NCBI GenBank assembly: GCA_964412525.1
Contig: CAYPOX010000002.1
Coordinates: 27-64,026, forward strand
Direction of reading: 5' to 3'
DNA length: 64,000 nt
Origin: an uncultured Caulobacterales bacterium
Lineage (GTDB): Bacteria > Pseudomonadota > Alphaproteobacteria > Caulobacterales > CAYPOX01
A program made the position numbers and the translations under genes. Below the pieces are notes generated by a model, which saw only the letters and a list, made by a program, of their open reading frames with translations, had not been told where the DNA came from and did no database searches. Below, piece by piece: positions 1 through 62,149 of the stretch. The first letter of the stretch is position 1. Each line of letters opens with the position of its first letter.

Positions 1-822
1 CGGGGGCGGGGCGGCGCGTCGGCCTTCAAAGCGGAAGCGGCCGCCGTCATCCGCTTCGGCTTGGAGCGCGGCGGCGTAGGCTTCCGCCACCTCTTTGGCG
101 GGGCCGTCCATGCGCACCCGTCCCCCGTCGATCCAGAGCGCGCGTCGGCACAGGGACAGCACCTGGTCGGGCGCATGGGAGACGAAGAGGAGGGCGCCAT
201 GGGCCTCGAAACTCCGCACATAGCGCATGCAGCGTTGGGCGAAGGCGGCGTCGCCCACGGCCAAGAGCTCGTCGACGATCAGGACGTCCGCCTCGGCGTG
301 GGCGGCGACGGCGAAGGCGAGGCGCGCCTGCATGCCGGCGGAATAGGTCTTGAGCGGCTGGTCGAAGAAATCGCCAAGGGCCGCGAAGGCCTCGATCTTG
401 GCCATGCGATCCTTCAGATCGCGTTCGTCGAGGCCCAGGGCGGCGGCTTGCAGGCGGGCGTTCTCCCGGCCGGTGAATTCGGGGTTGAAGGTGGCGCCCA
501 GATCCAGGAGCGGGGCGATCCGGCCATAGGACGCGACGTCGCCATGGCTTGGCGCGAGGGCGCCCGCCAGGATCTTCAAAAGGGTCGATTTGCCCGCGCC
601 GTTGCGGCCCAAAACGCCAACCGTCTCGCCCCGGCGGATGTCGAGATCGACGCCTTCCAGCGCCCAATAATCATGGTGCAGCTTGGCGCGCCGGAGGATC
701 ATCTGCCAGAGCCGATGCTCGGGCTTTTTGTAGATCCGATAGGCCTTGGCGAGCCCGCGCGCGCGGATCAGGAGATCCGGATCGGGCGCGGCCTTCATCT
801 GCGCAGGCGGGGCGGGGTTCAT
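1..822 (-). CDS. ABC transporter ATP-binding protein, polysaccharide/O-antigen exporter type (Wzt/KpsT/TagH-like); C-terminal part lies outside the window
   Basis: Absent from the ORF track because it has no stop inside the window. Hand translation of the minus strand from ATG 822-820 gives MNPAPPAQMKAAPDPDLLIRARGLAKAYRIYKKPEHRLWQ...RRGETVGVLGRNGAGKSTLLKILAG (Walker A), LKTYSAGMQARLAFAVAAH (signature-like) and ADVLIVDELLAVGD (Walker B). The frame stays open to nt 1 (274 codons). The 61..984 plus ORF is its antisense shadow. Confidence 0.85.
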   Translation of the reverse strand, partial: MNPAPPAQMKAAPDPDLLIRARGLAKAYRIYKKPEHRLWQMILRRAKLHHDYWALEGVDLDIRRGETVGVLGRNGAGKSTLLKILAGALAPSHGDVASYGRIAPLLDLGATFNPEFTGRENARLQAAALGLDERDLKDRMAKIEAFAALGDFFDQPLKTYSAGMQARLAFAVAAHAEADVLIVDELLAVGDAAFAQRCMRYVRSFEAHGALLFVSHAPDQVLSLCRRALWIDGGRVRMDGPAKEVAEAYAAALQAEADDGGRFRFEGRRAAPPP

Positions 823-973: not shown

Positions 974-1840
974 TCAATCTTTAAGCGGTTCAAAAGATGC
1001 GGCCCCAGACGACACCTTCGCCGGGTGATCGCGCACCGTTTTCAAGAAGTTGTGACCTGGGTGCGTAGACAAAAGATAGTTCAGCGCATCCCGTTCCGTC
1101 ATCAGTAGCAAATCGAGGGCTGAAACTTTTTCATGATAATCTTCAGATAACTGTCGGTAGCGTGGATAGCCTGTAAAATCCGCGACTCTCAATGTGATAC
1201 CTGCTTCCAGGAATTGCGCTTCGTCAAGGTATGTCAACGCCGCGGGCCCCGATACATAACGTGTTGCGCTCACCGCATGACACATTTCAATGAGTTGGTG
1301 ATTGCGTCGATATCGTTTTGCGACCGGGTCTTCATCTGTTTGCGGTGAATCGGTGGATTCGACACCAACGCGCCTTAAAATATCTCGAGATGAAATAAAC
1401 TCAACCGAGATATCTAGATTTTTCACTAAAAAATCAATAAATATGCGGTTGATCGAACTTAGCCTGTCCAAATTTGCTGCAGAATTGTATATGTCTTCGA
1501 TGTCATTTTTAATTCTACGGTACCCTTGTTCCTTTGAGTAATTTTGCTGAATGGCTCGAAAATGCTTTTTCGTCCACTGGGATCCATCAACTTCAGCTTG
1601 ATCTATCGTCTCTCCAAACCGGCGTTTGACAGGGATCGTCAGCCAGAAGGGGCCGTTGGGGCTCATGATTTTGTTACGGTTGCGCCAATCATTGCGCGTA
1701 TATTGAGCATGATCAAATAATACAAAAGTATCCGCAATGTTAGCTAAGTCAAGTACGCCGCGCCATGGCAAGTAGCTTGACTGTAAAATGACAGCGGTAC
1801 GATTATGTTCCATTGTTCGTTGGACGTAACGGATTCCCAT
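974..1840 (-). CDS. WbqC-family protein (unknown function, associated with amino-sugar O-antigen clusters)
   Basis: 288-aa ORF. AVILQSSYLPWRGVLDLANIADTFVLFDHAQYTRNDWRNRNKI...PFWLTIPV matches my memory of the WbqC-like signature (QPxYxPWxGY..D.FV..D...NRNxI...LTVPV). The AT-richer segment begins here. Confidence 0.75.
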   Translation of the reverse strand: MGIRYVQRTMEHNRTAVILQSSYLPWRGVLDLANIADTFVLFDHAQYTRNDWRNRNKIMSPNGPFWLTIPVKRRFGETIDQAEVDGSQWTKKHFRAIQQNYSKEQGYRRIKNDIEDIYNSAANLDRLSSINRIFIDFLVKNLDISVEFISSRDILRRVGVESTDSPQTDEDPVAKRYRRNHQLIEMCHAVSATRYVSGPAALTYLDEAQFLEAGITLRVADFTGYPRYRQLSEDYHEKVSALDLLLMTERDALNYLLSTHPGHNFLKTVRDHPAKVSSGAASFEPLKD

Positions 1841-2073
1841 TTAAGAGCTGCAGCGATCCACGCGATCGGCCATATGATAATCAGGCGAATCGATCAATCA
1901 AACAAAACATAAAATAATTCTGCATCATGATGAAAATAGAACGTGTTATCGCTGCGCAAATGAGCCAGCCATTGCGTTGACGCATACGTCGGCTGTACGG
2001 AGACTCCGTCGGCGCAGTTTACAGAGCCGATCACGATCGAACGTCAGTGAGTTTTAGCTTTGATGTTTTCCAC

Positions 2074-2676
2074 ATGAGGTCATTTGGTCAAAAAAAGCTT
2101 ATCATCTTGTCCGATGGAGAGCCGCCCTACGACGTAATCGCCGGCGCTTCCGACATATTCAACGAAGTGACGATGCGCCATGCGGACGATCTTTCGCCGA
2201 TTTCACCCGGTGGAGGCGAGGTTTTTGTCGGGATAGAAGATGCCGAGCTTCGCTGGAGCGTCTTAGATCGCCTGACGGGTGAGGGCGTCGCTTTCGCCCG
2301 GCTCATTCATCCCGGCGCGGTGATCGAGCCGGACGTGCGGCTCGCCTCGCACGCAGCGGTAGGCTTCGGCGCTCATGTCCAGCGTGGTGCGGAGTTAGAG
2401 GACGGCAGTTGGATGATGCCGTTTAGTTTTCTCGGTCATGAAGCCGTTCTTGGGCGGTGCAGCACCCTTGGCGTCGGCGCCCTGGTCAATGGGCGCTGTG
2501 TGATAGGAGCGCGTGTGCGGATTGGATCCAACGCCGTTGTTTTGCCGGACGTGACGATCGGGTCCGATTGCGTTCTTGATCCGGGTGTGGTGGTGACCAG
2601 CGACGTGCCGGACCGACACGATGTTCGGTCGCCGCCTTCACGCGTTATCGCGGCGCCGAGAGATTACTCCCTGTGA
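2074..2676 (+). CDS. left-handed beta-helix sugar acyltransferase (NeuD/PglD-like, degenerate N-terminal Rossmann motif)
   Basis: ORF 2047..2676. I prefer ATG 2074 (MRSFGQKKLIILSDG), the usual family N-terminus. Hexapeptide-repeat C-terminus GRCSTLGVGALVNGRCVIGARVRIGSNAVVLPDVTIGSDCVLDPGVVV. Its stop overlaps the next start (GTGA). Confidence 0.7.
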   Translation: MRSFGQKKLIILSDGEPPYDVIAGASDIFNEVTMRHADDLSPISPGGGEVFVGIEDAELRWSVLDRLTGEGVAFARLIHPGAVIEPDVRLASHAAVGFGAHVQRGAELEDGSWMMPFSFLGHEAVLGRCSTLGVGALVNGRCVIGARVRIGSNAVVLPDVTIGSDCVLDPGVVVTSDVPDRHDVRSPPSRVIAAPRDYSL

Positions 2677-3323
2677 CCGACGCCCATAAGCCGCTTTTGA
2701 TTTTTGGCGCGGGGGCGATGGCGGAATTTGTGTTTGACCTTTGCATTGCGGCCAAGCGCGCGGTCGCCGGCTTCGTTGTCGACACGCCCCGTGAGGTTGT
2801 GTTCCGAAGCCGTCCCGTAATCTCCGCAGCGGATGTGCTGCAGACCGCGCCGCCTTCAAACCATGAGATGTTCGTCGCCATCGGCTATTCGCGACGGCAC
2901 GTTGTGAGGCGGGATAAACGGTTGTGGGCGCAACAGCTTGGCTATGCGCAACCCTGGCTTGCCCACAAGAGCGCATGGATTGATCCGTCCGCAGATCTTG
3001 GCGCGAACGTCATGGTTCATGGCTTGGCCTATGTTGGCGCGGGCGCGCGCCTTGGCGCAGGCGCCACGCTTCTAGGCGGCCGCGTCATGCGGGATGCGCA
3101 AATCGGAGAGGACGCAATTTTGACGCATCGCTCCGTTGTCGACGCACATGCGGTCGTCCACGCGCGCGCGTTCCTCGGGAGCCTCAGTTACGTCGCGCCG
3201 ATGACTACGATCGGACACAGCGTCATTATGGCGTCCGGCGCGGTGGCGGCCGCTGATGTCGCTGAGGACTTCCTTGTTTCCCCGCGCCCATCTGCGCGCC
3301 AAACGCCGCGCGTCAACGTGTGA
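2673..3323 (+). CDS. NeuD/PglD-family sugar N-acyltransferase
   Basis: 216 aa. N-terminal PLLIFGAGAMAEFVFDL (GxGxxA Rossmann-like) followed by hexapeptide repeats (VGAGARLGAGATLLGGRVMRDAQIGEDAIL). Paralogous to, and translationally coupled with, the preceding gene. Confidence 0.8.
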   Translation: MTDAHKPLLIFGAGAMAEFVFDLCIAAKRAVAGFVVDTPREVVFRSRPVISAADVLQTAPPSNHEMFVAIGYSRRHVVRRDKRLWAQQLGYAQPWLAHKSAWIDPSADLGANVMVHGLAYVGAGARLGAGATLLGGRVMRDAQIGEDAILTHRSVVDAHAVVHARAFLGSLSYVAPMTTIGHSVIMASGAVAAADVAEDFLVSPRPSARQTPRVNV

Positions 3324-3528
3324 ACGCAATCCGCGCCCCACGACGCCGGGCCCTGGAGCGTTGACGATCGCGGCCATCCGTCGTCGAAGCGGATTTGAGA
3401 GTTTAAATTTGATCGAAAAGAAAATCCATGTAGGCCACGGTCTTGAAAGTCCTTGCGCGTGCGTACGCCGCGCAGCACCTGCACGTTTAAGGGCAAAAGT
3501 AAGTCACGAATACGCAGGAAAGCTTCAA

Positions 3529-3942
3529 ATGGAGAAAGATGATGCGCAGAGTTGGGTTGGGCGGCGCGCAGAATTCAACTTCGTCATCCGCTCCGAGGAC
3601 ATGACGTGGTTCCGTCAACTAAGCCAAGACACCAGCTTGATCCACACTGATCCCGCGTTTGCGCAGGCGCATTATTATGATGACGTCGTCGTATATGGCG
3701 GCTTACAGCTCGCACAATTATCCCGATTGCTCGGACGGCATTTGCCAGGCGCATGCGGCGTGTCCGCGGAATGGTCAATCGCCTATCGGGCGCCGCTCTA
3801 TGTCAACGAAGAAGCTTGCTTGACGGGAGAAGTCACACAACACGCCGTATCCGCCGGGGTTATTGAAATCTCGTTCGAAATATATAGCATAACACGCGGC
3901 TTATTGTCTAAAGGCAAAGCGCGATCTCGGATATTGGCGTAG
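3529..3942 (+). CDS. MaoC-like hot-dog fold (de)hydratase
   Basis: Track ORF 3256..3942. The internal ATG at 3529 is preceded by AGGAA and avoids overlap with the upstream gene. Motif SLIHTDPAFAQAHYYDDVVVYGGLQLAQLSRLLG resembles the MaoC dehydratase hydratase motif. Confidence 0.7.
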   Translation: MEKDDAQSWVGRRAEFNFVIRSEDMTWFRQLSQDTSLIHTDPAFAQAHYYDDVVVYGGLQLAQLSRLLGRHLPGACGVSAEWSIAYRAPLYVNEEACLTGEVTQHAVSAGVIEISFEIYSITRGLLSKGKARSRILA

Positions 3943-3962
3943 TTACATTGAGGCAGCGCTTC

Positions 3963-4907
3963 ATGTCAAAACAAGAAATACCCCACTTTCTCGAAAAAAT
4001 TGGCTCATATCCGTCTGTTCATAGAATATGTGAACACGTTCTTAATGTATTTCCGGAGCATATCGACGTTCTTTCCGCAAGCTTTGATTGCCCAGAGGAT
4101 CACCTGTTATTTGCAGAACTTCTTGCATCTCAGGTTCTTGCTATTGTTGGAGATTCTCTCGTCGATTATGCGAAAGGATACGCCTGGCTTTGTCGAACTG
4201 TTCTACATGAAGAGCTTCATTTTCGGAAGACGGGCGAATATCGACTAAGTTCTTTTGAGGATGCATGCTCTCAAGTATATCAAAATACTGAAATAATGAC
4301 CCCTTACATGCGCGGGTTACTTTTGTCGCAGGTGTTGTGGAGCAATCATAGGCAGGTTTTTCGTTTTTATCGAGATAATTTTTTGCATAATCATGCAGCT
4401 GATGTTCGGCATCTCGAGATAGGGCCTGGCCACGGATTATTTCTTTCATTTGCGGCGGCGAACAAACGCATTGGATCTCTTGAAGCATGGGACATCAGCG
4501 AATCCAGTCTTCGTGAAACGCGTTTGGCTTTGGACTGTCTTGGTGTGACGCGCCCCATTCATCTTTTGCGACAAGATATGTTTGATGCCGAGGAAAAATT
4601 TGGTGCATTCGACTCAATTGTTTTCTCGGAAGTTTTAGAACACCTTGATAGCCCTCGAGAGGCGCTGGATATTTTGCGTCGCATAGCCTCGAACAATGCA
4701 AAGTTATTTATTAACGCGCCGGCCAATTCACCAGCGCCAGACCACATTCATCTTTTCGCCGATCCCGCGGATGTCGGTGCAATGGTGCGTGAAGCCGGCT
4801 TCGCCGTAGAGATGGAAGCGCTCTTCCCAGCGACCGGAAGCACCTTGGAGCGGGCGCGCCGGCGGCGTATCGCAGTGTCGGCGTGCATCATCGCGCGACC
4901 GGCTTGA
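3963..4907 (+). CDS. class I SAM-dependent methyltransferase
   Basis: VRHLEIGPGHGLFLSF (motif I) and FDSIVFSEVLEHLDSPREALDILRRIASNNAKLFINAP (post-I/II motifs). ATG 3963 is preferred over TTG 3948. Confidence 0.8.
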   Translation: MSKQEIPHFLEKIGSYPSVHRICEHVLNVFPEHIDVLSASFDCPEDHLLFAELLASQVLAIVGDSLVDYAKGYAWLCRTVLHEELHFRKTGEYRLSSFEDACSQVYQNTEIMTPYMRGLLLSQVLWSNHRQVFRFYRDNFLHNHAADVRHLEIGPGHGLFLSFAAANKRIGSLEAWDISESSLRETRLALDCLGVTRPIHLLRQDMFDAEEKFGAFDSIVFSEVLEHLDSPREALDILRRIASNNAKLFINAPANSPAPDHIHLFADPADVGAMVREAGFAVEMEALFPATGSTLERARRRRIAVSACIIARPA

Positions 4908-4935
4908 TGAACGTTAAGGAGCGAGGGGCGAACCG

Positions 4936-6660
4936 ATGCAAGATGCACCGGCGCTGAATCTGGCGAAGATCCTCTCAGCGGAGCGCCGCGCGCGCGCTGA
5001 AGGCCCGAATGCCCGTGGTCGAATACGCGTTGCGTTCGGCGGCGATTGCACTCTTGATAATCTGGCGGCGGCCGCCTCCCACTTCGCACGTGCGCGCGCC
5101 ATTGAAATCGAGCCGGACATTCTTTCGTTCGATGGTTGGACCGCCGATGTTTTGAACCCGAACTTTGCGGCCGACCTTGCCGTCATCTGGGTGTCGGCGC
5201 TGGGATTGAGCGCCGGCGGGACGCGGCGTGAGGTCGATGACAAACTGGACGACATTGTCCTTGGGCTTAAGGCCCTAAACGACAAGGGCGTGAAGACGAT
5301 TCTCTTGACTCCAGAGCGCATGGCGGAGGAGGTCGAGCCGGGTTCGCCATGGGCCTCCTGGCGCAGGCGCGTCAAGGCGCGCCTAGAGCCGCTTGAAGGT
5401 CCACGTTTGACATTTCTGGATCCCGACATCTTCGCGCCCGAAGGCGGCTTCAAAGATTTTCGTTGGTGGACCCAAGCAAAAATAATCGGCGCGCCTGACG
5501 ACGTCATTCCCATCGCCCGCGCGCTGGCCGACACGTTGGCCAATCTTCGAAAGCACCCCGTAAAAGCGATTCTCGTCGACGCCGATGATACCCTATGGGG
5601 CGGCGTGCTGGGCGAAGTCGGCGTCGAAGGCGTGCTTCTTAACCCGGCAGGCGCGGGGGCCGCGTTCTTGCGGTTGCAACACTATCTAAAGGATGCGCTT
5701 CTCGACGGCGTGGCGCTTGGCGTCGCCTCCAAAAACGATCCGGGATCGGTGGCGGAAGTTCTCGATCGTCGCATGGAAATGGTGCTCAAGCGGTCCGATT
5801 TTCTGTTTATACGCGACGATTGGACCCCAAAATATCTCGCCGCCGTCGCATTCTGCGAACAATTGAATATCGGAACGGACGCTCTTGTTTTCTTGGACGA
5901 CAACCCTCACGAGCGTGCGGAGATGCGCGCGATGCTGCCGGACGTCATCGTGCCGGACCTTTCTGCTGATCCGCACGAGCGAGCAAGATTTCTTTCTAAT
6001 CTCAGCTTAATAAGAAAACCGACGCGATCACAAGAAGATCAGGCGCGAATTAGTTATTTTAAACAAGATATTGAGCGCGCGCATGCACAAAAGTCCGCGC
6101 AATCGAGAGATGACTACTTGCGTTCGCTAAATATCAATTTGAACATCGAACCAATCGACGGATCGAATCTGCCTCGCGTGACGGATCTTATTCACAAGAC
6201 AAATCAATTTAATCTGACGTGCCGCCGCCACAACCCGACGGAGCTGCAGCAATTCTTAGCGCCGCCGCATTACGCCCGCGCCTTCCACGTCACCGATCGA
6301 TTTGGCCCTGCGGGGCTGGTGGGCGTGATCCTCGCCGCCCGCAACGAAACCGTGCTCGAAATTGACACGTGGCTGTTATCTTGCCGAGTTCTTGGGCGCA
6401 CCGTCGAGGAGGGCATGTTGGCGCATTTGATTGATTGGGCGCGACACGAGAACGTCGCGACGCTGCGCGGACGTTTTGTCGCTCATAAACGCAACGCTCA
6501 AGTCGCGGACATCTATCCTCGCATGGGATTTCAGCTAAGCTCAAATCATGACATGGGAACAGGTCAAGTGTATGATGCCCAAATCAAACAACTGAACTTG
6601 CCAAAAACATTTGTTCGTTTTGTCGAGCCATCCAGCCACAAGGAGTTACTTGGTGACTGA
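4936..6660 (+). CDS. FkbH-like HAD-IIIC family protein (phosphatase/acyl-loading enzyme with C-terminal GNAT-like domain)
   Basis: 574 aa. HAD DxDxT motif in AILVDADDTLWGGVLGE, then GVASKNDPGSVAEVL and LVFLDDNPHERAEM (HAD motifs II/III). The C-terminal HKTNQFNLTCRRH region is typical of FkbH-like proteins as I remember them. Confidence 0.75.
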   Translation: MQDAPALNLAKILSAERRARAEGPNARGRIRVAFGGDCTLDNLAAAASHFARARAIEIEPDILSFDGWTADVLNPNFAADLAVIWVSALGLSAGGTRREVDDKLDDIVLGLKALNDKGVKTILLTPERMAEEVEPGSPWASWRRRVKARLEPLEGPRLTFLDPDIFAPEGGFKDFRWWTQAKIIGAPDDVIPIARALADTLANLRKHPVKAILVDADDTLWGGVLGEVGVEGVLLNPAGAGAAFLRLQHYLKDALLDGVALGVASKNDPGSVAEVLDRRMEMVLKRSDFLFIRDDWTPKYLAAVAFCEQLNIGTDALVFLDDNPHERAEMRAMLPDVIVPDLSADPHERARFLSNLSLIRKPTRSQEDQARISYFKQDIERAHAQKSAQSRDDYLRSLNINLNIEPIDGSNLPRVTDLIHKTNQFNLTCRRHNPTELQQFLAPPHYARAFHVTDRFGPAGLVGVILAARNETVLEIDTWLLSCRVLGRTVEEGMLAHLIDWARHENVATLRGRFVAHKRNAQVADIYPRMGFQLSSNHDMGTGQVYDAQIKQLNLPKTFVRFVEPSSHKELLGD

Positions 6661-6898
6661 AGATCAGATTCTTGTGCGAATGCAGGACACGTTCGCGGAG
6701 ATCCTTGAAATATCAAAAGATAAAGTCACTCTATTTCTTGGTAAAGACGACGTCGAAAATTGGGACTCGTTCGTAACCATATCAATGATTTCCGCTATCG
6801 AAAATGAGCTCGAGATTTCATTGGACTTGGAGGCTGCAATGTCTGCTAGAACCGTAGGAGCGCTGCTTGCGATCGCATGCGGCAAGCCGTCTCCATGA
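6653..6898 (+). CDS. acyl carrier protein
   Basis: Track ORF 6611..6898. In-frame GTG 6653 lies 7 nt after AGGAG (6641-6645) and overlaps the FkbH-like stop. About 81 aa with a phosphopantetheine-site-like motif, ENWDSFVTISMISAIENEL (DSx in helix II position). Confidence 0.7.
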   Translation: MTEDQILVRMQDTFAEILEISKDKVTLFLGKDDVENWDSFVTISMISAIENELEISLDLEAAMSARTVGALLAIACGKPSP

Positions 6899-6938
6899 TG
6901 TTTCCGCATTTTGATTGGGGGCGACGGCTGCTTTGAGT

Positions 6939-7877
6939 TTATTGAAAGCGATTGAATTCGTGGGTTTCGACCACATGGACCAACTCTTCGTCGAAACGGC
7001 GAGTCGGTCGCCAGCCCAATCGACGTAGTTTGGCGTCGTCGACGGAATAGCGCACGTCTTGACCGGCGCGATCACCTGAAAACACCCAGCCCTGCCCCTC
7101 CTTCGCGGGCACGCCCAAGAGCGCGCAAAGTTTGCGCGCGACATCAATATTGCGGTGCTGCTCATCACCAGACACGTTATAAATTGTCTGGCGTGCACCG
7201 TCTTCGATAATTCGGAACAATGCTTCCGCGGTGTCGTCGGCATGCAGCCATGTACGAATATATGATCCGTCACCATGCAATGGTATCGGCCGACCGCGCT
7301 TCAAGCGACCGATCGCCTTCGGAATAAGTTTTTCAGGATATTGATGGCATCCATAATTGTTTGTCGGGCGCGCAATGTTCCAAGGCAGGCCATATGTACG
7401 CCCCCAGCTCATCACAAGCATGTCGGCCGCCGCTTTTGTCGCCGAGTACGGATTCGAAGGCTTAAGGAGCGCGTTTTCGTCAAAGCTACCCTCGATGTTA
7501 TCGCCATAAACTTCATCGGTGGATATTTGTAAATATAATGGAGTATCTTGATAGGCTTTGCCTCGAATCAACTCGAGTAATTTTTGAGTCCCAACGATAT
7601 TCGAACGAACGAATTTCGCGTTAGAAGAAATGGAAGCATCTACGTGGCTTTCGGCGGCGAAGTGCACAACGACATCACACTCTGGAATAAATTCAAGGTC
7701 CACGACATCAGCATGAATGAGACGGTAGTTTGGATGACGTGTAAATTCATCGGAGATTTTTACGTCTGCTGCGTAATTGATGCAGTCTATGTTTTTGACA
7801 AAATGCCCTCTTTGCAAAGCGCATTGAATAAAATGCTTTCCAATAAAACCAAGGCCGCCAGTCACAAGAATTATCAT
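6939..7877 (-). CDS. dTDP-glucose 4,6-dehydratase-like NAD-dependent SDR
   Basis: MIILVTGGLGFIGKHF (GxxGxxG), ISTDEVYG, and PYSATKAAADMLV (YxxxK). These are classical RmlB-type motifs. Confidence 0.85.
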   Translation of the reverse strand: MIILVTGGLGFIGKHFIQCALQRGHFVKNIDCINYAADVKISDEFTRHPNYRLIHADVVDLEFIPECDVVVHFAAESHVDASISSNAKFVRSNIVGTQKLLELIRGKAYQDTPLYLQISTDEVYGDNIEGSFDENALLKPSNPYSATKAAADMLVMSWGRTYGLPWNIARPTNNYGCHQYPEKLIPKAIGRLKRGRPIPLHGDGSYIRTWLHADDTAEALFRIIEDGARQTIYNVSGDEQHRNIDVARKLCALLGVPAKEGQGWVFSGDRAGQDVRYSVDDAKLRRLGWRPTRRFDEELVHVVETHEFNRFQ

Positions 7878-7885
7878 AATAATAC

Positions 7886-9034
7886 CTAATTATTAATTTC
7901 GGACATAATGCGCCTGATTGACGCGGTCACATATTCCAGTTCTTTCATTGTCATTTTTGGAAAGAATGGAAGTGAAATTTGGCCGGCGCCCCATTCGACC
8001 GATTCCGGCGTTCGCTCGGCTGCGTCTGGATATTTGTCGCGATAATAGGTCAATGTTGGCACGGCCCGGTAGTTGACTGTGACGGCGACGCCGGCGGCGT
8101 TCAACTCGGCGATGATTGCGTCTCGCTGCACCGGCGGAACGTGCACAGGATACAGATGCCGCGCATGACGCACCCGTCCATCGATCGTTGGCCGTCTGAC
8201 CGGAACATCATCCAAAAGCGCGTCATATTTCGCCCAAAGAGCGTCGCGTGTGGCTAGACGATCTCGGATCGTCTCAATCTGCTTTGGTAGCAGCGCCGCG
8301 AGCAAATCGGGCAAATTTGCTTTCACGCCGAGCCGTTTCATGTCCCAATGGTTGTAGCGGCCGCCGCGAAAACGATCGGCCGCAATGGCGGACATGCCGT
8401 GGAGGCGGGTTTCACGGACGGCGGCTGCGAGATCGGCGTCACCCGTGATCACTGCGCCGCCCTCACCGCATGTTACATTTTTGGTGGCGTAAAACGAGAA
8501 CACCGCGCAATCGCCGTCCGATCCGGGCGGCCGATCGTCAAAGGCGCCTTCAAAGCAATGCGCCGCGTCCTCCAAGATTTTGACGTCTGAACGGCCATTG
8601 GCGTCCAACGCTTTGCGTATGGCCGCTACGTCGCACATTTGCCCATAAAGATGAACGGGAATGACTGCGCGGGTGCGCGAGGTCAATGCATCGACAACGT
8701 GTTCTGGCGTCACCAGCAACGTTTCCGGATCAACGTCCACGAACACCGGGTTTGCGCCTGTCAACGCAACCACATTGGCCGAGGCGATAAAGGTTTGCGC
8801 AGGCACGAGCACGTCGTCCGCCGGCCCGACTCCCCAAGCCAGAAGCACAGCGATCGCGCCATTGGTCCAAGAATTGACGAGGAAAGCGTGTCGAATGTCA
8901 AAAAATTCTTGGAGTTGCTCTTCGACCGCCCGGCCGACGGATCCTGACGTCAAAAAAGGCGAGTCCAACACCGCTCCGATCGACGCCGCAGAGCTGGAGT
9001 CCAGTTCATGTCGGTAGAATGGAACGTTCATCAC
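7886..9034 (-). CDS. DegT/DnrJ/EryC1/StrS-family sugar aminotransferase
   Basis: 382 aa. SFYATKNVTCGEGGAVIT contains the PLP-lysine motif of this family. Only an 8-nt gap to the dehydratase gene. Confidence 0.9.
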   Translation of the reverse strand: MMNVPFYRHELDSSSAASIGAVLDSPFLTSGSVGRAVEEQLQEFFDIRHAFLVNSWTNGAIAVLLAWGVGPADDVLVPAQTFIASANVVALTGANPVFVDVDPETLLVTPEHVVDALTSRTRAVIPVHLYGQMCDVAAIRKALDANGRSDVKILEDAAHCFEGAFDDRPPGSDGDCAVFSFYATKNVTCGEGGAVITGDADLAAAVRETRLHGMSAIAADRFRGGRYNHWDMKRLGVKANLPDLLAALLPKQIETIRDRLATRDALWAKYDALLDDVPVRRPTIDGRVRHARHLYPVHVPPVQRDAIIAELNAAGVAVTVNYRAVPTLTYYRDKYPDAAERTPESVEWGAGQISLPFFPKMTMKELEYVTASIRRIMSEINN

Positions 9035-9035
9035 G

Positions 9036-10142
9036 TCACCTCTTTATAAAATAATTCATATTGCCGATCATTGGTAAAGGGAGATTTGGTTTCACAAAGT
9101 AAAAGCCACACTTCTCAAATAACGCCCGCTCTTGACCGGAATATCTTCGATTCCGGACAAGATGCGACACCATTGGAAGTCCGAAAGAGCTAGAAAGAAA
9201 TAATACGCCGCCCGGACGAATACATTTATTCAAAGTTTCGAGAACGCCCTCAACGTCCAGCACATGCTCCAACACTTCGATGCAGACGCCGAAATCACAT
9301 GGGCCACCGATTTGCTCTAAAACAGCTTCCGGGTCATGATTACTACAGTAGCGGACATTAGAAATGCCAGCGATTTCGTCGCGCCAGCGAGCGAATGCAA
9401 GCGCCTGTGTCGATGGTTCTATCAACGTTACAGACGGAACGCCCGCTTGCGCCAAAGCCGAGGTGATCATGCCGACGTTACCACCAAGATCGAACGCTTT
9501 TTGCGCCTTAATTTCGCGCGCGATTGCGACGCTTGTGCCGCGAATCGCTGCGCCCAAAGCGTGCTCGGCGATTAAATGTAGATGGACGCCCATCGGAAAA
9601 GGAATTCCATCATAGAATTTGGTGAGCTGTTCTTCAGTCACATTTTCTTCGTCGGGAACGCAAGCACCCCAAAGGTCTTTGACTGTTTGTTCAGCGTTGT
9701 TCAATTTGTCTTCGACGTCACCAATGTCTTCACCAAGAAAATCCGCATAAAGCGCCAATGCGACGGTACGCCGATCGCGAAGCACGAAGTTGGGAAACCG
9801 GGTGCGTACGTGCTCAACAATAGGTGCGCCAAACAAAGCGTCATAGAGAAAGTAAGAGTATCTCTCAACTTGGATGGCGATTGATAGGTCGTTCAACCAC
9901 GTTTTCGCGCTATTTGTGTTCAATTTTTGAGTTTCGGACGCATAATACGCCGCCGCACGTGCAAATTCGGGCGCGGAAAAACCAAATATTTCGTGCCCAG
10001 CGCTATTTGTGAACTTTCTGGGCGGCCTCAATTGAGAGATTTTGTTTAAAACGGCGTCAAACTCATCCATAGGGCGAATGGTGCTCCTGTACAGTTGATT
10101 CGCGTCTTGTGGGCTTCGAAAGTCAGGCGACGCCGATGACAA
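9036..10142 (-). CDS. SAM-dependent methyltransferase with about 200-aa N-terminal domain of unknown function
   Basis: C-terminal half has AFDLGGNVGMITSALAQAG (motif I) and FGVCIEVLEHVLDVEGVLETLNKCIRPGGVLFLS. The track start is TTG with poor RBS spacing; the real start may be M25 (MDEFDAV). Confidence 0.7.
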   Translation of the reverse strand: MSSASPDFRSPQDANQLYRSTIRPMDEFDAVLNKISQLRPPRKFTNSAGHEIFGFSAPEFARAAAYYASETQKLNTNSAKTWLNDLSIAIQVERYSYFLYDALFGAPIVEHVRTRFPNFVLRDRRTVALALYADFLGEDIGDVEDKLNNAEQTVKDLWGACVPDEENVTEEQLTKFYDGIPFPMGVHLHLIAEHALGAAIRGTSVAIAREIKAQKAFDLGGNVGMITSALAQAGVPSVTLIEPSTQALAFARWRDEIAGISNVRYCSNHDPEAVLEQIGGPCDFGVCIEVLEHVLDVEGVLETLNKCIRPGGVLFLSSSFGLPMVSHLVRNRRYSGQERALFEKCGFYFVKPNLPLPMIGNMNYFIKR

Positions 10143-10185: not shown

Positions 10186-12312
10186 TTATAAGATGACCGT
10201 GTTTAGGTTTAACGTTTCCCGCCATACGGCTTGCGCCGCCTCCGGGCCGTAGCGGGCCGCCGCATGGGCGCGTCCGGCCGCCGCGATCCGGCCCCACAAG
10301 GCGGCGTCGCTCAAAAGGTCAGCGAGCGCTTCGGCGAAGGCCTGCGCGTCGCCGGCGATCCGGGCGGTCAGGCCGTCCGCAAGGGCGAGCCCTTCCGCCC
10401 CCATAGGCGTCGTCGCCACCGGCAGACCATGGACGAGGGCGTCGATCAGCTTGCCCTTGATGCCGGCGCCGTAACGCAGGGGCGCCGCCATGGCGCGGCA
10501 TTCCACAAACAGACTGCTGAGATCTTTAACCCAGCCGCGCGCCTCGATTCCCGGCAGGGCGCCAAGGTCGCGCAGTTCCGGCCCCATGGCCGCCCCCGCC
10601 AGGATCAGCCGGGCCTCGGGGATCCGGACGCGCGCCAAGGGCCAGATCTCCCGCGCAAGAAAGCGCGCCGCGTCCACATTGGGCGGATGGCGATAATTGC
10701 CGAGAAAGACCGCCTGGGGCGGCCGGGCGTCGAAGGGCGGGCCCGGATCGCGCAGGGTTTCGATCCAGGGCAGCACCGTGACCGGCGCCGCCTCCGGCCA
10801 GGACCGGATCAATTGGGCCTCGACGTCGGAATGCACCATCACATGATCGGCGGCCGCGCATAGCCGGCGTTCGCGCGCCTCATAGGCGCGGGCCGCGCGG
10901 GCCGCGGCTTTCGAGCCCGTGGCCTCGGCCTCCCGGGCGAGACGCAAATGGTGCAGGTCGGCCGGGTGAAAGACGATCGTCGCCTTGGGCGCGCGGCGCC
11001 GGATCCGGGCGAGCCGCCCCTCCGCGACGTCGGCGCGAAACAGCACCGCCGCGGCGAGGCCCGGCGCCTCGCGTTTCAGAAGCGCGCCGAAGGCCGGCGC
11101 ATAGGGCGCCGCATGGGCCTCCACGCCGGCGGCGCTCCACAAATCCTGGCGCGCCACAGCCCCCCTCGGCGCGCTTTCCGCCCAAAAGACCGGGCGCTGG
11201 CCGCAAGCCGTGATCGCCTGCATCAAAGCGAGCGTGAAGCGGGAGCCGGCGTCGCGGTCCGGATCGGGCGGATGTTGATCGACCACCAAGACGCGCGCCC
11301 GCCCGCGCGAGGGATCGGCCGGATCCCGGTCAGCCCCGGCGGCGAGATCGGCCCGTGGCGGCGGCGGCCCGAAGGGCGTGAGCACATCCCTATGCCGGCG
11401 CGCCAACAAGGCTTGGTGCTTCGGTTGATAGGCCTTCACCCCCTGGGCGACATCCCGGCCATTCGTTGCGCCTTCGATATGAACCAGTTCGCACAAAGGT
11501 TCATAGAGCGTCGTCCAGCCATCCCCCCGCGCCCTGAGGCACAGATCCGCGTCCTCCCCATAGGCGGGGGCGAAAGCGGGATCGAAGCCGTGGAGGGCGG
11601 CGAAAACCTCCCGGCGCACGGCCACGGCGGCGGCGGAGGCGTAATCGACCGGGCGGCGAAATTGATAGGCGGGCCGGTTCGGATCGTCGCCGCCGCCCCA
11701 ACGCCAGGCCGTTCCGTCTTCAAACAAGAGCGCGCCGGCCTCCTGCAACGTTCCGTCCGGGTTCAGGAGTTTCGCGCCGACCATGCCCGCTTGCGGCTCC
11801 GCCTTGAGCGCGGCGAGAAGCGCGGCGAGCGCGTTCGGCCGAAGGAAGGCGTCCGAATTCAGAAAAAACAGCACCGGAGCGCGGGCCGCCGCCGCGCCCG
11901 TATTGCAGGCCGCGCCGAAGCCTTGATTGGCCTCATGGCGGATCAGGCGCACCGGGCGGACGGCGCAGCCCTCGGCCAGGATCTGGGACTGCGGCATGGG
12001 GCTGGCGTCATCGACGACGAGCGTCTCATAGGCGACCCCCCCGCCATGGGCGGCGAGCCCGTCCAGCGCCGCCAAGGCCAGCTTGGCCTGGCCGTAGACC
12101 GGCATGATGACGGACATCTCCAAATCCGCCTCCGGCGTGCGCGGCCAGGGATCTTGCGGCGGCGGCAAGCCTTTCACGCGCCGGGACGGACCGCCCGGAA
12201 TTCGCCCGGCGACGCGCCACGCCATCGCGCGCGCCCGCGCTTTCCACAGGCTTGGCAAAGGCGCGGCCCGATAGAGCGCACGGGCGAAGCGAAAGGCGGC
12301 GGCGTCATCCAT
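10186..12312 (-). CDS. two-domain glycosyltransferase (N-terminal GT2, C-terminal GT-B/GT4-like)
   Basis: MSVIMPVYGQAKLALAALDGL...ETLVVDDASP and NQGFGAACN (GT2). C-terminus RYGAGIKGKLIDALVHGLPVATTPMGAEGL (GT4-like). Very GC-rich, unlike both neighbours. The last ~10 codons (ETLNLNTVIL) are AT-rich. Confidence 0.8.
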   Translation of the reverse strand: MDDAAAFRFARALYRAAPLPSLWKARARAMAWRVAGRIPGGPSRRVKGLPPPQDPWPRTPEADLEMSVIMPVYGQAKLALAALDGLAAHGGGVAYETLVVDDASPMPQSQILAEGCAVRPVRLIRHEANQGFGAACNTGAAAARAPVLFFLNSDAFLRPNALAALLAALKAEPQAGMVGAKLLNPDGTLQEAGALLFEDGTAWRWGGGDDPNRPAYQFRRPVDYASAAAVAVRREVFAALHGFDPAFAPAYGEDADLCLRARGDGWTTLYEPLCELVHIEGATNGRDVAQGVKAYQPKHQALLARRHRDVLTPFGPPPPRADLAAGADRDPADPSRGRARVLVVDQHPPDPDRDAGSRFTLALMQAITACGQRPVFWAESAPRGAVARQDLWSAAGVEAHAAPYAPAFGALLKREAPGLAAAVLFRADVAEGRLARIRRRAPKATIVFHPADLHHLRLAREAEATGSKAAARAARAYEARERRLCAAADHVMVHSDVEAQLIRSWPEAAPVTVLPWIETLRDPGPPFDARPPQAVFLGNYRHPPNVDAARFLAREIWPLARVRIPEARLILAGAAMGPELRDLGALPGIEARGWVKDLSSLFVECRAMAAPLRYGAGIKGKLIDALVHGLPVATTPMGAEGLALADGLTARIAGDAQAFAEALADLLSDAALWGRIAAAGRAHAAARYGPEAAQAVWRETLNLNTVIL

Positions 12313-51269: not shown

Positions 51270-51279
51270 GAGCGCTGTC

Positions 51280-61264: not shown

Positions 61265-62149
61265 TCACAACACGTCCGCGAAGGCTTTGCGGGTTTTGGC
61301 GAAAAGGAAATAGCCGATCCAGCAGCAGAGAAGGCCGATCCCGGCATGGCCGGCGGTGCGGGCGAGATCCGGGACGGCGCCGAAGAGGAGAGCGTCGCGC
61401 AGCCCGTCCACGCTCGGGGCGATGGGATTGATCGCCAGGAAAGGCCGCGCCGGCCCCGGCGCAAGTTCGGCCGGATAGAAGACCGGGCTCAAAAACAAGA
61501 CGCCGGTGAGGATCGGAGGAAGGATCTGCTGCAGATCTCTGAGAAAGACGCCCAGCGCCCCTAGCGCGAAGGTGAGACCAAGCGCGATCAGGATGAGCGG
61601 CGCAAGGGCCAGGAGGGCCAAGGGCGCCGTCCAGGGCGGCGCGCCGGTCGTGATCACGACCGCGGCGAGGAGGATCAGGATTTGCGGCGCGGCGTTCATC
61701 AATCCGGCCGCCACGCTCGCCCAGGGCAGGATGTCCAAGGGAAAATTCGGTTGGGCGGCCAAGGTTCGATGTTTCAGCACAAGGACCGGCGCCCGGATCG
61801 CCGCATCGGCGAAGAGATTGAACACGATCAGGCCGGAGAACAGGATCACCACGGTCGGAACGCCGGTCTCCGCGCCGGGGGCCGGGGCGCCCCACCGGGC
61901 TTGAAACACTGCGCCGAACACGAAGGCGTAGACCCCCAGCATGAGAAGCGGCGTGATCAGGCCCCAGGCCGCGCCGAGCAAGGTTCCGCGCCGGGCCTCC
62001 GCCGCCTCCCGCACGGCGAAACGGCCGATCAAAGCGGGCCGGCGCAGGAGCGGGAAAAGAAAGGCCCAGGGCGCGCGGGCGGCGCGCTCATAGGCGCGCA
62101 CCCGGTCATGATAGCTTGCGGACGCCGCCGCTTCGGTCGAAGCGGTCAC
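61265..62149 (-). CDS. wzm: ABC-2 type polysaccharide/O-antigen export permease
   Basis: Track ORF 61265..62236. In-frame GTG 62149 overlaps the upstream TGA (GTGA). Opening ...LIGRFAVREAAEARRGTLLGAAWGLITPLLMLGVYAFVFGAVFQ is typical of Wzm/KpsM-type permeases; multiple TM segments follow. Confidence 0.8.
   Translation of the reverse strand: MTASTEAAASASYHDRVRAYERAARAPWAFLFPLLRRPALIGRFAVREAAEARRGTLLGAAWGLITPLLMLGVYAFVFGAVFQARWGAPAPGAETGVPTVVILFSGLIVFNLFADAAIRAPVLVLKHRTLAAQPNFPLDILPWASVAAGLMNAAPQILILLAAVVITTGAPPWTAPLALLALAPLILIALGLTFALGALGVFLRDLQQILPPILTGVLFLSPVFYPAELAPGPARPFLAINPIAPSVDGLRDALLFGAVPDLARTAGHAGIGLLCCWIGYFLFAKTRKAFADVL

What the first reader, a model, noticed from the sequence alone, without database searches (positions are those of the whole stretch)
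2074..6898. FkbH-like enzyme, ACP and hot-dog dehydratase embedded in a dideoxy-aminosugar cassette: an unusual N-acyl decoration
Seen: on the plus strand, two NeuD/PglD-like acyltransferases, a MaoC-like hot-dog protein, a SAM MTase, an FkbH-like HAD-IIIC protein (DADDT motif) and an ACP (GTG start overlapping the FkbH stop). This block is convergent with the 4,6-dehydratase, DegT aminotransferase and a second MTase. Known: FkbH-type enzymes load a glycolytic C3 unit onto an ACP as glyceryl-ACP. NeuD/PglD/VioB-type enzymes N-acylate 4-amino-4,6-dideoxy sugars. Inference: the sugar is probably N-acylated with an ACP-derived, possibly dehydrated and/or O-methylated, C3 acid (glyceroyl, methoxy-type or acryloyl-type) rather than acetate. 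No rmlA-type nucleotidyltransferase is present in the window.
Basis: partly seen in the sequence, partly recalled or inferred. Interest (0 to 1): 0.6.

Follow-up and report, generated by a model that had tools for sequence, protein, structure and literature searches.

The report
Glycerate-loading acyl module in sugar cluster
A plasmid-borne surface-polysaccharide gene cluster carries a four-gene module (FkbH loader, carrier protein, methyltransferase, hot-dog dehydratase) that most likely builds a modified three-carbon glycerate acyl group and attaches it to an amino sugar, which gives a testable genetic origin for the "glyceroyl" decorations already known on bacterial sugars.

Summary
The FkbH-like protein scores 266 bits against TIGR01686 (cutoff 147). 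It has the DxDxT motif, an invariant Cys483 and a GNAT-fold C-terminal domain, so it is not a bare phosphatase. The ACP keeps its Ser in a conserved WDS motif, and its GTG start overlaps the FkbH stop. The MaoC protein keeps the Asp/His dyad.

The quartet MaoC + methyltransferase + FkbH + ACP is a conserved portable module. It is present beside all five nearest FkbH homologues examined and in nine loci overall. In the eight other loci it lies among nonulosonic-acid or CMP-sugar genes and is paired with varying N-acyltransferase families.

In this window the module is joined to an RmlB-type 4,6-dehydratase, an aminotransferase and a pair of LbH transferases. One of that pair lacks the catalytic His. 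The surrounding locus is an ABC-transporter polysaccharide cluster on a roughly 64 kb plasmid.

The closest chemical precedents are di-O-methylglyceroyl-pseudaminic acid in C. jejuni 11168, whose locus includes an fkbH-domain gene, and N-glyceroyl sugars.

I classify this as a new variant of a known kind, of moderate interest.

The parts
2047..2676 (+). AT1: LbH (hexapeptide) transferase of the NeuD/PglD/PerB type. It keeps the catalytic His but has a degenerate N-terminal domain. An alternative ATG lies at 2074.
   Evidence: PerB (4EA7) matches at E 4e-14. The His of 'FLGHEAVLG' aligns with PerB His141.
2673..3323 (+). AT2: a second LbH paralogue. It has a PglD_N domain but carries Arg at the catalytic His position, so it is probably a non-catalytic or partner subunit.
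   Evidence: Its start overlaps the AT1 stop by 4 nt.
3529..3942 (+). MaoC-type single hot-dog (R)-hydratase/dehydratase with an intact Asp/His dyad.
   Evidence: PhaJ (1IQ6) E 1.6e-11 and HTD2 (3IR3) E 8.7e-10. Asp and His are conserved in 9 of 9 module MaoCs.
3948..4907 (+). MT1: class I SAM methyltransferase belonging to the module.
   Evidence: Homologues sit beside FkbH in L002, L003, L010, L011, L019, L034, L043, L051, L059, L060 and L061.
4936..6660 (+). FkbH-type loader with three parts: an N-terminal domain, a HAD-IIIC phosphatase domain (D215-x-D217-x-T219) and a GNAT-fold domain carrying Cys483.
6653..6898 (+). Dedicated acyl carrier protein. The Ser lies in a WDS motif, and the GTG start overlaps the FkbH stop.
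6939..7877 (-). NDP-glucose 4,6-dehydratase of the RmlB type.
   Evidence: 2HUN matches at E 1.9e-74.
7886..9034 (-). DegT-family sugar aminotransferase. The best solved relatives are ArnB and perosamine synthase, both C4 aminotransferases.
9036..10142 (-). MT2: a second SAM methyltransferase with an N-terminal half of unknown function. It might methylate the sugar or add a second methyl to the acyl group.
10186..12312 (-). Two-domain glycosyltransferase (GT2 plus GT1).
12412..13959 (-). GT1-like glycosyltransferase.
974..1840 (-). WbqC-family protein of unknown function. It is also found near FkbH plus an LbH transferase in L020 and L051.
   Evidence: No solved relative and no functional literature.
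1..822 (-). Wzt ABC-transporter ATPase, N-terminal part. The gene runs off the left end of the window.
63654..64000 (-). Wzt C-terminal glycan-binding domain. This is the same gene, continuing across the ends of the circular replicon.
   Evidence: (Wzt_C 69.8 bits).
62146..63657 (-). Methyltransf_24 domain followed by an Ala/Glu/Arg-rich tail that looks like a long coiled coil by eye. A candidate chain terminator.
   Evidence: The coiled coil was not tested with a predictor.
61265..62236 (-). Wzm ABC-2 permease.
58930..61182 (-). Glycosyltransferase with two GT2 domains.

Best explanation
**Role of the block.** The plus-strand block is an acyl-donor and acyl-transfer operon for a surface polysaccharide.

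**Step 1, loading.** FkbH takes a phosphorylated C3 glycolytic intermediate. By analogy with characterised FkbH enzymes this is 1,3-bisphosphoglycerate. FkbH removes the phosphate in its HAD domain, holds the glyceryl group on Cys483 of its GNAT-fold domain, and passes it to the phosphopantetheine arm of the dedicated ACP, giving glyceryl-S-ACP.

**Step 2, tailoring.** The methyltransferase MT1 and the MaoC hydratase/dehydratase modify the carrier-bound unit. My preferred route is as follows.
- MaoC dehydrates glyceryl-ACP to the enol (2-hydroxyacryloyl) form.
- MT1 methylates the enol oxygen, giving 2-methoxyacryloyl-ACP.
- MaoC may then re-hydrate this intermediate, and a second methylation may follow.
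- The end product would be a 2-O-methyl- or 2,3-di-O-methyl-glyceroyl group. If re-hydration does not occur, the product is the 2-methoxyacryloyl group itself.

**Step 3, transfer.** The LbH transferase AT1, probably together with the His-less paralogue AT2, moves the acyl group onto the 4-amino group of an NDP-4-amino-4,6-dideoxyhexose. That sugar is made by the convergent RmlB-type dehydratase and DegT aminotransferase.

**Step 4, assembly and export.** The neighbouring glycosyltransferases polymerise the sugar, a methyltransferase with a probable coiled-coil tail caps the chain, and Wzm/Wzt export it.

**Shown versus inferred.**
- Shown: the genes, motifs, folds and conserved gene neighbourhood.
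- Inferred: the substrates, the order of tailoring steps, use of acyl-ACP by an LbH enzyme, and the final structure.
For: **FkbH**
- TIGR01686 scores 266 bits against a cutoff of 147.
- D215, D217, N267, D321, the NQFN core (423-426) and S482-C483-R484 are invariant in 70 homologues; T219, S265, K266, D322 and K421-T422 are conserved in at least 90%.
- The model has pLDDT 93.3. It matches 3SLR over the N-terminal plus HAD part and GNAT acetyltransferases over the C-terminal part.

**ACP**
- The Ser is conserved and the gene is translationally coupled to FkbH.
- An ACP-like ORF lies beside FkbH in 38 of 53 genome loci.

**MaoC**
- The Asp/His dyad aligns with PhaJ and is conserved in 9 of 9 module MaoCs.

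**The quartet as a module**
- MaoC + MT1 + FkbH + ACP is present beside all five nearest FkbH homologues examined (L002, L003, L059, L060, L061) and also in L011, L019 and L043.
- Each locus has a different candidate N-acyltransferase: AAC(3)-like, a 362-aa GNAT-like protein, or LbH.
- In L060 the MaoC domain is fused to an SDR domain.

**Pathways excluded in the window**
- No NeuB, Cj1295-type, AAC(3)-type or GNAT-X homologue is present, so the LbH pair is the only recognisable acyltransferase family in the window apart from FkbH's own GNAT domain.

**Literature**
- C. jejuni 11168 carries Pse5(2,3-di-O-methylglyceroyl)7Ac (PMC3068675).
- Strains with a broken fkbH-domain gene cj1302, or lacking cj1301, lack that sugar (PMC7099621).
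- A DH-MT-FkbH-ACP loading module exists in the polyketide synthase OocJ (PMC4552970).
- The P. syringae viosamine island uses vioB (LbH), acp, vioS, vioR and vioM to N-acylate and O-methylate viosamine (PMC3927599).
Against: - There are no biochemical or glycan-structure data for this organism.
- Both LbH proteins score below the curated NeuD-family cutoff (100.5 and 93.5 bits against 160.8). Solved members of that family such as PerB and PglD are acetyltransferases that, to my knowledge, use acyl-CoA rather than acyl-ACP.
- AT2 lacks the catalytic His.
- The role of MaoC in making a saturated di-O-methylglyceroyl group is not obvious. My dehydrate, methylate, re-hydrate route is speculation.
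- Direct homology to C. jejuni Cj1299-Cj1302 could not be checked, because two protein searches failed to retrieve Campylobacter sequences.
- The nucleotide carrier of the sugar, and whether it has gluco or galacto configuration, cannot be read from sequence.
- All other copies of the full quartet sit among nonulosonic-acid or CMP-sugar genes, not hexosamine genes.
Confidence: 0.6

Rival explanations
1. The module makes the same carrier-bound C3 acid, but the acid is attached somewhere other than the 4-amino group. It could be an O-ester on a sugar hydroxyl or a non-reducing-end cap that Wzt_C reads. In that case the amino sugar is simply N-acetylated from acetyl-CoA by AT1.
For: - LbH enzymes include many O-acyltransferases, seen among the hits.
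- The locus has a Wzt_C domain and a terminator-like methyltransferase, so some terminal cap is expected.
- WbqC, of unknown function, recurs with FkbH and could be the true transferase.
Against: - AT1's best solved relatives are N-acetyltransferases of 4-amino sugars: PerB, PglD and PglB.
- AT1 and AT2 are in the same operon, directly upstream of the module.
- In related loci the module always travels with an N-acyltransferase-type gene next to amino-sugar genes.
Confidence: 0.15
2. The transferred group is a dehydrated product with no precedent in glycans. It would be N-pyruvoyl (the keto tautomer formed after MaoC dehydration), or N-2-methoxyacryloyl as the final group rather than an intermediate, and not a methylated glycerate.
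For: - MaoC is catalytically intact and conserved in the module.
- The order DH-MT-FkbH-ACP matches a PKS loading module (PMC4552970).
- The MaoC-SDR fusion in L060 suggests a dehydration then reduction logic.
- MaoC-only and MT-only versions of the module exist, which suggests the two tailoring steps are independent.
Against: - No glycan with such an acyl group turned up in the literature searched.
- The known products in this chemical family are glyceroyl and di-O-methylglyceroyl.
- There is no reductase in the window.
Confidence: 0.25
3. The FkbH-like protein acts only as a phosphatase, or transfers glycerate or phosphoglycerate directly, and the small ORF is not a functional carrier protein. 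The block would then be unrelated to acylation of the sugar.
For: - The ACP Pfam score is only just above cutoff (21.5 against 20.8 bits).
- Pfam itself gave no hit for the FkbH protein.
Against: - NCBIfam FkbH scores 266 bits.
- A GNAT-fold domain carries the invariant Cys483.
- The ACP family has a conserved Ser in 7 of 7 members, the gene is translationally coupled to FkbH, and an ACP-like ORF lies beside FkbH in 38 of 53 loci.
Confidence: 0.05

Closest known systems
[quoted passage not shown]
   Same: - The sugar carries an N-linked, O-methylated glycerate group (PMC3068675).
- The locus contains an fkbH-domain gene, cj1302, and strains in which cj1302 is a pseudogene or cj1301 is absent lack the sugar (PMC7099621).
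- From my memory of the genome annotation, the locus also holds an ACP (cj1299) and a SAM methyltransferase (cj1300).
- The metagenomic loci nearest to the window's FkbH carry a Cj1295-family gene (DUF2172/DUF4910) next to the quartet.
   Different: - The acceptor there is a nonulosonic acid (pseudaminic acid) on flagellin. Here it is an RmlB/DegT-derived 6-deoxy-amino-hexose in an ABC-transporter polysaccharide.
- The window has no Cj1295-type, AAC(3)-type or NeuB gene and uses LbH transferases instead.
- Sequence homology to the Campylobacter proteins was not verified here.
Pseudomonas syringae pv. tabaci viosamine island (vioA, vioB, vioS, vioR, acp, vioM, vioT)
   Same: - A 4-amino-4,6-dideoxyglucose is N-acylated with a carrier-protein-derived hydroxy-acyl group.
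- An LbH VioB-type transferase does the transfer.
- A methyltransferase adds an O-methyl group (PMC3927599).
   Different: - There the acyl group is a C4 unit (3-hydroxybutanoyl) made by a KAS III and a ketoreductase. Here there is no ketosynthase, and the acyl group comes from a glycolytic C3 unit through FkbH.
- The target there is flagellin, not an exported polymer.
FkbH/FkbJ-type glyceryl-ACP formation in methoxymalonyl-ACP and tetronate biosynthesis
   Same: - An FkbH domain with the same motifs works with a standalone ACP.
- Glyceryl-ACP is formed from 1,3-bisphosphoglycerate (PMC7489565).
   Different: - The window has no FkbI or FkbK dehydrogenases, no FkbG-type O-methyltransferase, and no PKS or FabH-like partner.
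- The product feeds a glycan rather than a polyketide.
PKS loading modules that combine DH, MT, FkbH and ACP domains (OocJ of oocydin A)
   Same: The same four functions occur in the same order as the window's MaoC-MT1-FkbH-ACP (PMC4552970).
   Different: - There they are fused domains of a trans-AT PKS with PKS-type DH and MT domains, which that paper regarded as possibly inactive.
- Here they are four separate proteins, the dehydratase is a MaoC-type hot-dog, and there is no PKS.
N-glyceroyl amino sugars known only as structures: Pse5Am7Gra of Tannerella forsythia, Pse7Gra in Vibrio vulnificus LPS, and QuiNAc4N(D-glyceroyl) in the Pragia fontium O-antigen
   Same: - A glycerate group is amide-linked to an amino sugar.
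- In Pragia it sits on the 4-amino group of a 6-deoxyhexose (PMC5378307, PMC10609480).
   Different: - The genes responsible were stated to be unidentified (PMC5378307).
- No methylation or dehydration is reported for those structures.

Membership tests
FkbH family (glyceryl-ACP-forming HAD-IIIC enzymes, TIGR01686) | Score above the curated family cutoff | tested here: met
   266.1 bits against a cutoff of 146.65. HAD-SF-IIIC scores 45.2 against 35.75.
FkbH family (glyceryl-ACP-forming HAD-IIIC enzymes, TIGR01686) | HAD phosphatase motifs: DxDx(T/V), S/T-K-N and the DD motif | tested here: met
   D215, D217, N267 and D321 are invariant in 70 sequences. T219, S265, K266 and D322 are conserved in at least 90%.
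FkbH family (glyceryl-ACP-forming HAD-IIIC enzymes, TIGR01686) | C-terminal acyl-transfer domain with a conserved Cys that carries the glyceryl group (the role of this Cys is from my own knowledge of OzmB/FkbH studies) | tested here: met
   S482-C483-R484 is invariant. The C-terminal ~170 residues match GNAT folds with TM-scores of 0.7-0.77 normalised to the target.
FkbH family (glyceryl-ACP-forming HAD-IIIC enzymes, TIGR01686) | A dedicated carrier protein with a phosphopantetheine-attachment Ser | tested here: met
   The ACP at 6653-6898 has its Ser in a WDS motif conserved in 7 of 7 module ACPs, and it overlaps the FkbH stop.
FkbH family (glyceryl-ACP-forming HAD-IIIC enzymes, TIGR01686) | Converts 1,3-bisphosphoglycerate to glyceryl-S-ACP | not testable with these tools
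   This needs an enzyme assay with intact-protein MS.
Methoxymalonyl-ACP pathway (FkbG, H, I, J, K) | Two dehydrogenases (FkbK- and FkbI-like) and an FkbG-type O-methyltransferase beside FkbH and ACP | tested here: not met
   No acyl-CoA dehydrogenase or 3-hydroxyacyl-CoA dehydrogenase domain appears among the window ORFs scanned. MT1 belongs to the Methyltransf_23/11/12 type.
NeuD/PglB/VioB LbH sugar N-acyltransferases (TIGR03570) | Score above the curated family cutoff | tested here: not met
   AT1 scores 100.5 bits and AT2 93.5 bits against a cutoff of 160.8. Both are divergent relatives.
NeuD/PglB/VioB LbH sugar N-acyltransferases (TIGR03570) | Catalytic His (PerB His141, and the equivalent His in PglD) | tested here: inconclusive
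   AT1 has the His. AT2 has Arg at that position.
NeuD/PglB/VioB LbH sugar N-acyltransferases (TIGR03570) | N-terminal nucleotide-sugar-binding domain (PglD_N) | tested here: inconclusive
   AT2 scores 24.6 bits against a cutoff of 23.4. AT1 has no hit and lacks the GAGGHAK-like motif.
MaoC-like (R)-specific hydratase/dehydratase | Pfam MaoC domain above cutoff, plus the Asp/His catalytic dyad | tested here: met
   31 bits against a cutoff of 27. The motif 'LSQDTSLIH' aligns with 'LSEDFNPLH' of PhaJ 1IQ6.
Nonulosonic-acid (Pse/Leg) pathway with a glyceroyl-type N-acyl group, C. jejuni type | NeuB-type synthase, CMP-transferase and a Cj1295-family protein in the locus | tested here: not met
   HMMs built from related loci find no NeuB, DUF2172, AAC(3)-like or GNAT-X homologue in the window. 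Pfam scans of the larger ORFs found no cytidylyltransferase domain. The SDR scores 310 bits against RmlB and 104 bits against LegB.
ABC-transporter-dependent polysaccharide with terminal capping (E. coli O8/O9a type) | Wzm, Wzt with a C-terminal binding domain, and a terminator methyltransferase with a coiled coil | tested here: met
   ABC2_membrane 66 bits, Wzt_C 69.8 bits, ABC_tran 76.9 bits and Methyltransf_24 97.9 bits. The Ala/Glu/Arg-rich tail of the methyltransferase looks like a coiled coil by eye; no predictor was run. That it actually terminates chains is not testable here.

The most novel reading that the evidence does not exclude
**A general, unrecognised machine for C3 N-acyl groups.** The MaoC-MT-FkbH-ACP quartet would be the general route by which bacteria make glycerate-derived N-acyl groups on surface sugars. 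It would work by an enol-trapping mechanism: dehydration, O-methylation of the enol, then optional re-hydration.

**What this plasmid would add.**
- The module delivers an acyl-ACP, not an acyl-CoA, to a heteromeric LbH transferase. AT1 would be the catalytic subunit and AT2 a His-less sugar-binding or ACP-binding subunit.
- The result is a polymer of N-(2-methoxyacryloyl)- or N-(O-methylglyceroyl)-4-amino-4,6-dideoxyhexose, a decoration not yet described on hexosamines.
Probability: 0.2. Interest if true: 0.75.

Novelty: new variant of a known kind. Interest (0 to 1): 0.55.

Why it matters
N-glyceroyl and di-O-methylglyceroyl groups on bacterial surface sugars are known structures. They occur on Campylobacter flagellin, on the Tannerella S-layer glycan, in Vibrio vulnificus LPS and in the Pragia O-antigen. 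A 2017 paper states that the responsible genes had not been identified (PMC5378307). In the library searched, only one paper mentions FkbH together with glycans.

A conserved four-gene module therefore gives a concrete hypothesis that can be tested directly. The module couples a glycolytic C3 unit to amino sugars through a carrier protein.

This window adds a further point. The module is portable between sugar scaffolds, from nonulosonic acids to 6-deoxyhexosamines, and between transferase families. It can also travel on a plasmid together with a complete export system. That matters for antigenic diversification, phage-receptor variation and glycoengineering.

Tried and rejected
**Identifying the source organism**
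- The genome-contig scan found no match better than 40% identity.
- Megablast against plasmids gave only short hits at 74-92% identity to Azospirillum, Skermanella and Sinorhizobium.
- The organism is probably an alphaproteobacterium but remains unnamed.

**Retrieving the C. jejuni cj1295-cj1302 locus for direct comparison**
- Protein searches seeded with an AT-rich FkbH and with a Cj1295-family protein returned no Campylobacter entries among the 120 listed hits.
- The link to C. jejuni therefore rests on literature and on memory of the annotation.

**Pathways rejected**
- Methoxymalonyl-ACP pathway: no FkbI, FkbK or FkbG homologues.
- Nonulosonic-acid pathway in this window: no NeuB, cytidylyltransferase or Cj1295-type gene.
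- PKS or fatty-acid extension of the C3 unit: no ketosynthase domain among the window ORFs scanned.

**Searches that led nowhere**
- Literature on glyceroyl groups on Qui4N, perosamine or viosamine gave no genetic data.
- A loosely specified FkbH search was uninformative.
- WbqC has no solved relative and no functional literature.
- MT1 has only weak solved relatives, so whether it methylates oxygen or carbon could not be decided.
- Promoter and terminator scans showed no clear enrichment (7 promoter-like sites against 3.3 ± 1.6 expected; terminator-like sites below expectation), and I did not use them.

Full report
**Observation**

On the plus strand:
- AT1 (2047-2676; alternative ATG at 2074) and AT2 (2673-3323, overlapping AT1 by 4 nt) are hexapeptide-repeat proteins. 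Their best NCBIfam match is NeuD/PglB/VioB, at 100.5 and 93.5 bits, both below the curated 160.8.
- The MaoC hot-dog ORF is listed from 3256, but the real start is the ATG at 3529.
- MT1 (3948-4907) is a class I SAM methyltransferase.
- The 574-aa protein at 4936-6660 scores 266 bits on the FkbH model (cutoff 146.65) and carries VDADDTLWGG.
- The ACP starts at the GTG at 6653, which overlaps the FkbH TGA at 6658-6660 and has AAGGAG 7 nt upstream. An independent gene call on another assembly used the same start.

Convergent with this block on the minus strand are an RmlB-type 4,6-dehydratase (6939-7877), a DegT aminotransferase (7886-9034) and MT2 (9036-10142). These are followed by a GT2+GT1 glycosyltransferase and a GT1-like protein. 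No nucleotidyltransferase or NeuB is detectable in the window.

**Is the FkbH-like protein more than a phosphatase, and is the ACP functional?**

- In alignments of 14 and of 70 homologues, one of which a source names FkbH, D215, D217, N267, D321, the NQFN core (423-426) and S482-C483-R484 are invariant. T219, S265, K266, D322 and K421-T422 are conserved in at least 90%.
- An AlphaFold model built on the 70-sequence alignment has mean pLDDT 93.3.
- Foldseek matches residues ~1-380 to the N-terminal plus phosphatase fragment of BF1531 (3SLR). It matches the C-terminal ~170 residues to GNAT acetyltransferases such as RimI, with TM-scores of 0.7-0.77 normalised to the target.
- From its position in the model's secondary structure and a GNAT motif-A-like sequence, which I did not map residue by residue, the invariant Cys appears to sit where GNAT enzymes bind the pantetheine arm. 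That placement fits an acyl-S-enzyme intermediate passed to a carrier protein.
- The ACP belongs to a small family with a conserved V-x-x-W-D-S motif (7 of 7 members).
- An ACP-like ORF lies immediately beside the FkbH gene in 38 of 53 loci recovered from genomes.

**The hot-dog protein**

- It matches the (R)-specific enoyl-CoA hydratase PhaJ (1IQ6, E 1.6e-11) and human 3-hydroxyacyl-thioester dehydratase 2.
- The catalytic Asp and His align (LSQDTSLIH against LSEDFNPLH) and are conserved in all nine module homologues.

**A conserved module**

The window's FkbH has no close relative; the best match is 41% identical. All five nearest homologues whose contigs I examined (L002, L003, L059, L060, L061) carry MaoC, an MT1 homologue, FkbH and an ~80-aa ACP side by side. 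The same quartet occurs in L011 (Bacteriovoracaceae), L019 and L043 (Sulfuricella).

In these loci the surrounding genes are for nonulosonic or other CMP-activated sugars, including NeuB (six of the eight), CMP-transferase and LegB/LegC-like genes. The adjacent candidate N-acyltransferase differs between loci:
- an AAC(3)-like protein plus a DUF2172/DUF4910 protein in L002, L003, L059 and L060;
- a 362-aa weakly GNAT-like protein in L011, L019, L020 and L043.

Across the 53 loci, MaoC occurs in 13, MT1 in 9 and ACP in 38. FkbH+ACP is therefore the core, and MaoC and MT1 are tailoring add-ons that usually travel together. In L060 the MaoC domain is fused to a short-chain dehydrogenase.

**What is different in this window**

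- HMMs built from the related loci find no NeuB, DUF2172, AAC(3)-like or GNAT-X gene here.
- The SDR is RmlB-like (310 bits, against 104 for LegB; best PDB hit 2HUN at E 1.9e-74).
- The aminotransferase is closest to the C4 aminotransferases ArnB and perosamine synthase.
- No 3,4-ketoisomerase is present, so the sugar is most simply an NDP-4-amino-4,6-dideoxyhexose.
- The only recognisable acyltransferase family in the window apart from FkbH's own GNAT domain is the LbH pair that opens the operon.
- The nearest analogue of this hexose-type arrangement is L051, a Polyangiaceae MAG. It has an NTP-transferase, WbqC, DegT, MT1, FkbH, ACP and an LbH transferase, but no MaoC.

**The LbH pair**

- AT1 aligns with Caulobacter perosamine N-acetyltransferase PerB (E 4e-14) and keeps the His equivalent to His141, but it has no recognisable PglD_N domain.
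- AT2 has the PglD_N domain but carries Arg at the catalytic His position.
- The two look complementary. Whether they form a mixed trimer is untested.

**Wider context**

- The window is almost a complete ~64.3 kb replicon. The contig carrying the identical FkbH is 64,293 bp, and RepA and ParA genes are present.
- The wzt gene is split across the window ends. Its ABC domain lies at 822..1 and its Wzt_C domain at 64000..63654.
- The glycan locus therefore runs from 58930 through the origin of the window to 13959. It includes a double-GT2 enzyme, Wzm, and a Methyltransf_24 protein whose Ala/Glu/Arg-rich tail looks like a long coiled coil and whose GTG overlaps the wzt stop. This is the layout of an ABC-transporter polysaccharide with terminal capping.
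- The sugar genes have 49-58% GC against 63-70% for most of the plasmid.

**Comparison with what is known**

[quoted passage not shown] The dehydrogenases and FkbG-type methyltransferase of those pathways are absent here.
- C. jejuni 11168 flagellin carries Pse5(2,3-di-O-methylglyceroyl)7Ac, which depends on Cj1295 (PMC3068675).
- Two strains that lack this sugar have the fkbH-domain gene cj1302 as a pseudogene or lack cj1301 (PMC7099621).
- N-glyceroyl groups are known on Pse in Tannerella and V. vulnificus, with the genes stated to be unidentified (PMC5378307), and on QuiNAc4N in Pragia fontium (PMC10609480).
- The P. syringae viosamine island shows an ACP-dependent N-acylation of viosamine by an LbH VioB together with an O-methyltransferase (PMC3927599).
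- The polyketide synthase OocJ has a DH-MT-FkbH-ACP loading module (PMC4552970). These are the same four functions in the same order as MaoC-MT1-FkbH-ACP here.

**Mechanism proposed**

1. FkbH loads glyceryl onto the ACP.
2. MaoC and MT1 tailor the carrier-bound unit.
3. AT1, with AT2, transfers it to the 4-amino group.
4. The glycosyltransferases polymerise the sugar, the chain is capped, and Wzm/Wzt export it.

For the tailoring step I suggest, as inference only, that MaoC dehydrates glyceryl-ACP to the enol, MT1 methylates the enol oxygen (chemically easier than methylating a secondary alcohol), and MaoC may then re-hydrate the product. This route reconciles an intact hydratase with a methylated glycerate product of the C. 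jejuni type. If re-hydration does not occur, the product is a 2-methoxyacryloyl group, which would be new for glycans.

**Verdict**

The system is a new variant of known kinds: FkbH/ACP glyceryl loading, and ACP-dependent N-acylation of 4-amino-6-deoxy sugars. Interest is moderate. Its value lies in making the origin of glycerate-type N-acyl decorations directly testable.

Noticed in passing
window 1-822 (-) and 63654-64000 (-); also 51241-51978 and 56219-57157: The window is nearly a whole circular replicon of about 64.3 kb. The wzt gene is split across the window ends, with the ABC domain on the left and the Wzt_C domain on the right. RepA_C and ParA/VirC1 genes are present. The polysaccharide locus therefore wraps around the window ends, from 58930 to 13959.
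   Followed up: yes
window 2047-3323: The two LbH transferases look complementary. AT1 keeps the catalytic His but has no recognisable PglD_N domain. AT2 has PglD_N but carries Arg at the His position. They may form a heteromeric enzyme, or AT2 may be a pseudo-enzyme partner.
   Followed up: partly
window 62146-63657 (-): A Methyltransf_24 domain is followed by an Ala/Glu/Arg-rich tail that looks like a long coiled coil by eye (no predictor run). Its GTG start overlaps the wzt stop codon. With the Wzt_C domain, this resembles a WbdD-like chain-length terminator.
   Followed up: partly
window 27000-48544: The same plasmid carries a 3237-aa RTX protein (33134-42847), a 1456-aa cadherin/Big_9/DUF5648 protein (27000-31370), a 526-aa methyltransferase between them, a 543-aa RTX protein, and a type I secretion ABC/HlyD pair. 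This may be a secreted adhesin or S-layer set travelling with its own surface glycan.
   Followed up: no
window 974-1840 (-); L020 341-1039; L051 4963-6084: A WbqC-family protein of unknown function recurs near FkbH plus an LbH transferase in the non-nonulosonate loci. It has no solved relative and no functional literature. It may belong to the pathway.
   Followed up: partly
L060 6560-8029: In one related locus the module's MaoC domain is fused to a short-chain dehydrogenase domain (489 aa). This suggests a dehydratase-reductase pair acting on the carrier-bound C3 unit.
   Followed up: partly
window 974-10142 and 12412-13959 compared with 10186-12312: GC content is mosaic. Most sugar genes are 49-58% GC, while the GT2+GT1 gene embedded among them is 69%, like the rest of the plasmid. 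This suggests the locus was assembled from foreign and resident parts.
   Followed up: no
window 17760-18173, 18833-19264 and 22072-22536 (all -): A Fic/DOC-domain gene and two PIN-domain genes lie between the glycan locus and the adhesin genes. They are likely toxin-antitoxin addiction modules of the plasmid.
   Followed up: no
window 48601-50984 (+): Two paralogous methyltransferases of the MetW/Methyltransf_11 type (321 and 338 aa) lie directly downstream of the type I secretion genes. Their function is unknown.
   Followed up: no
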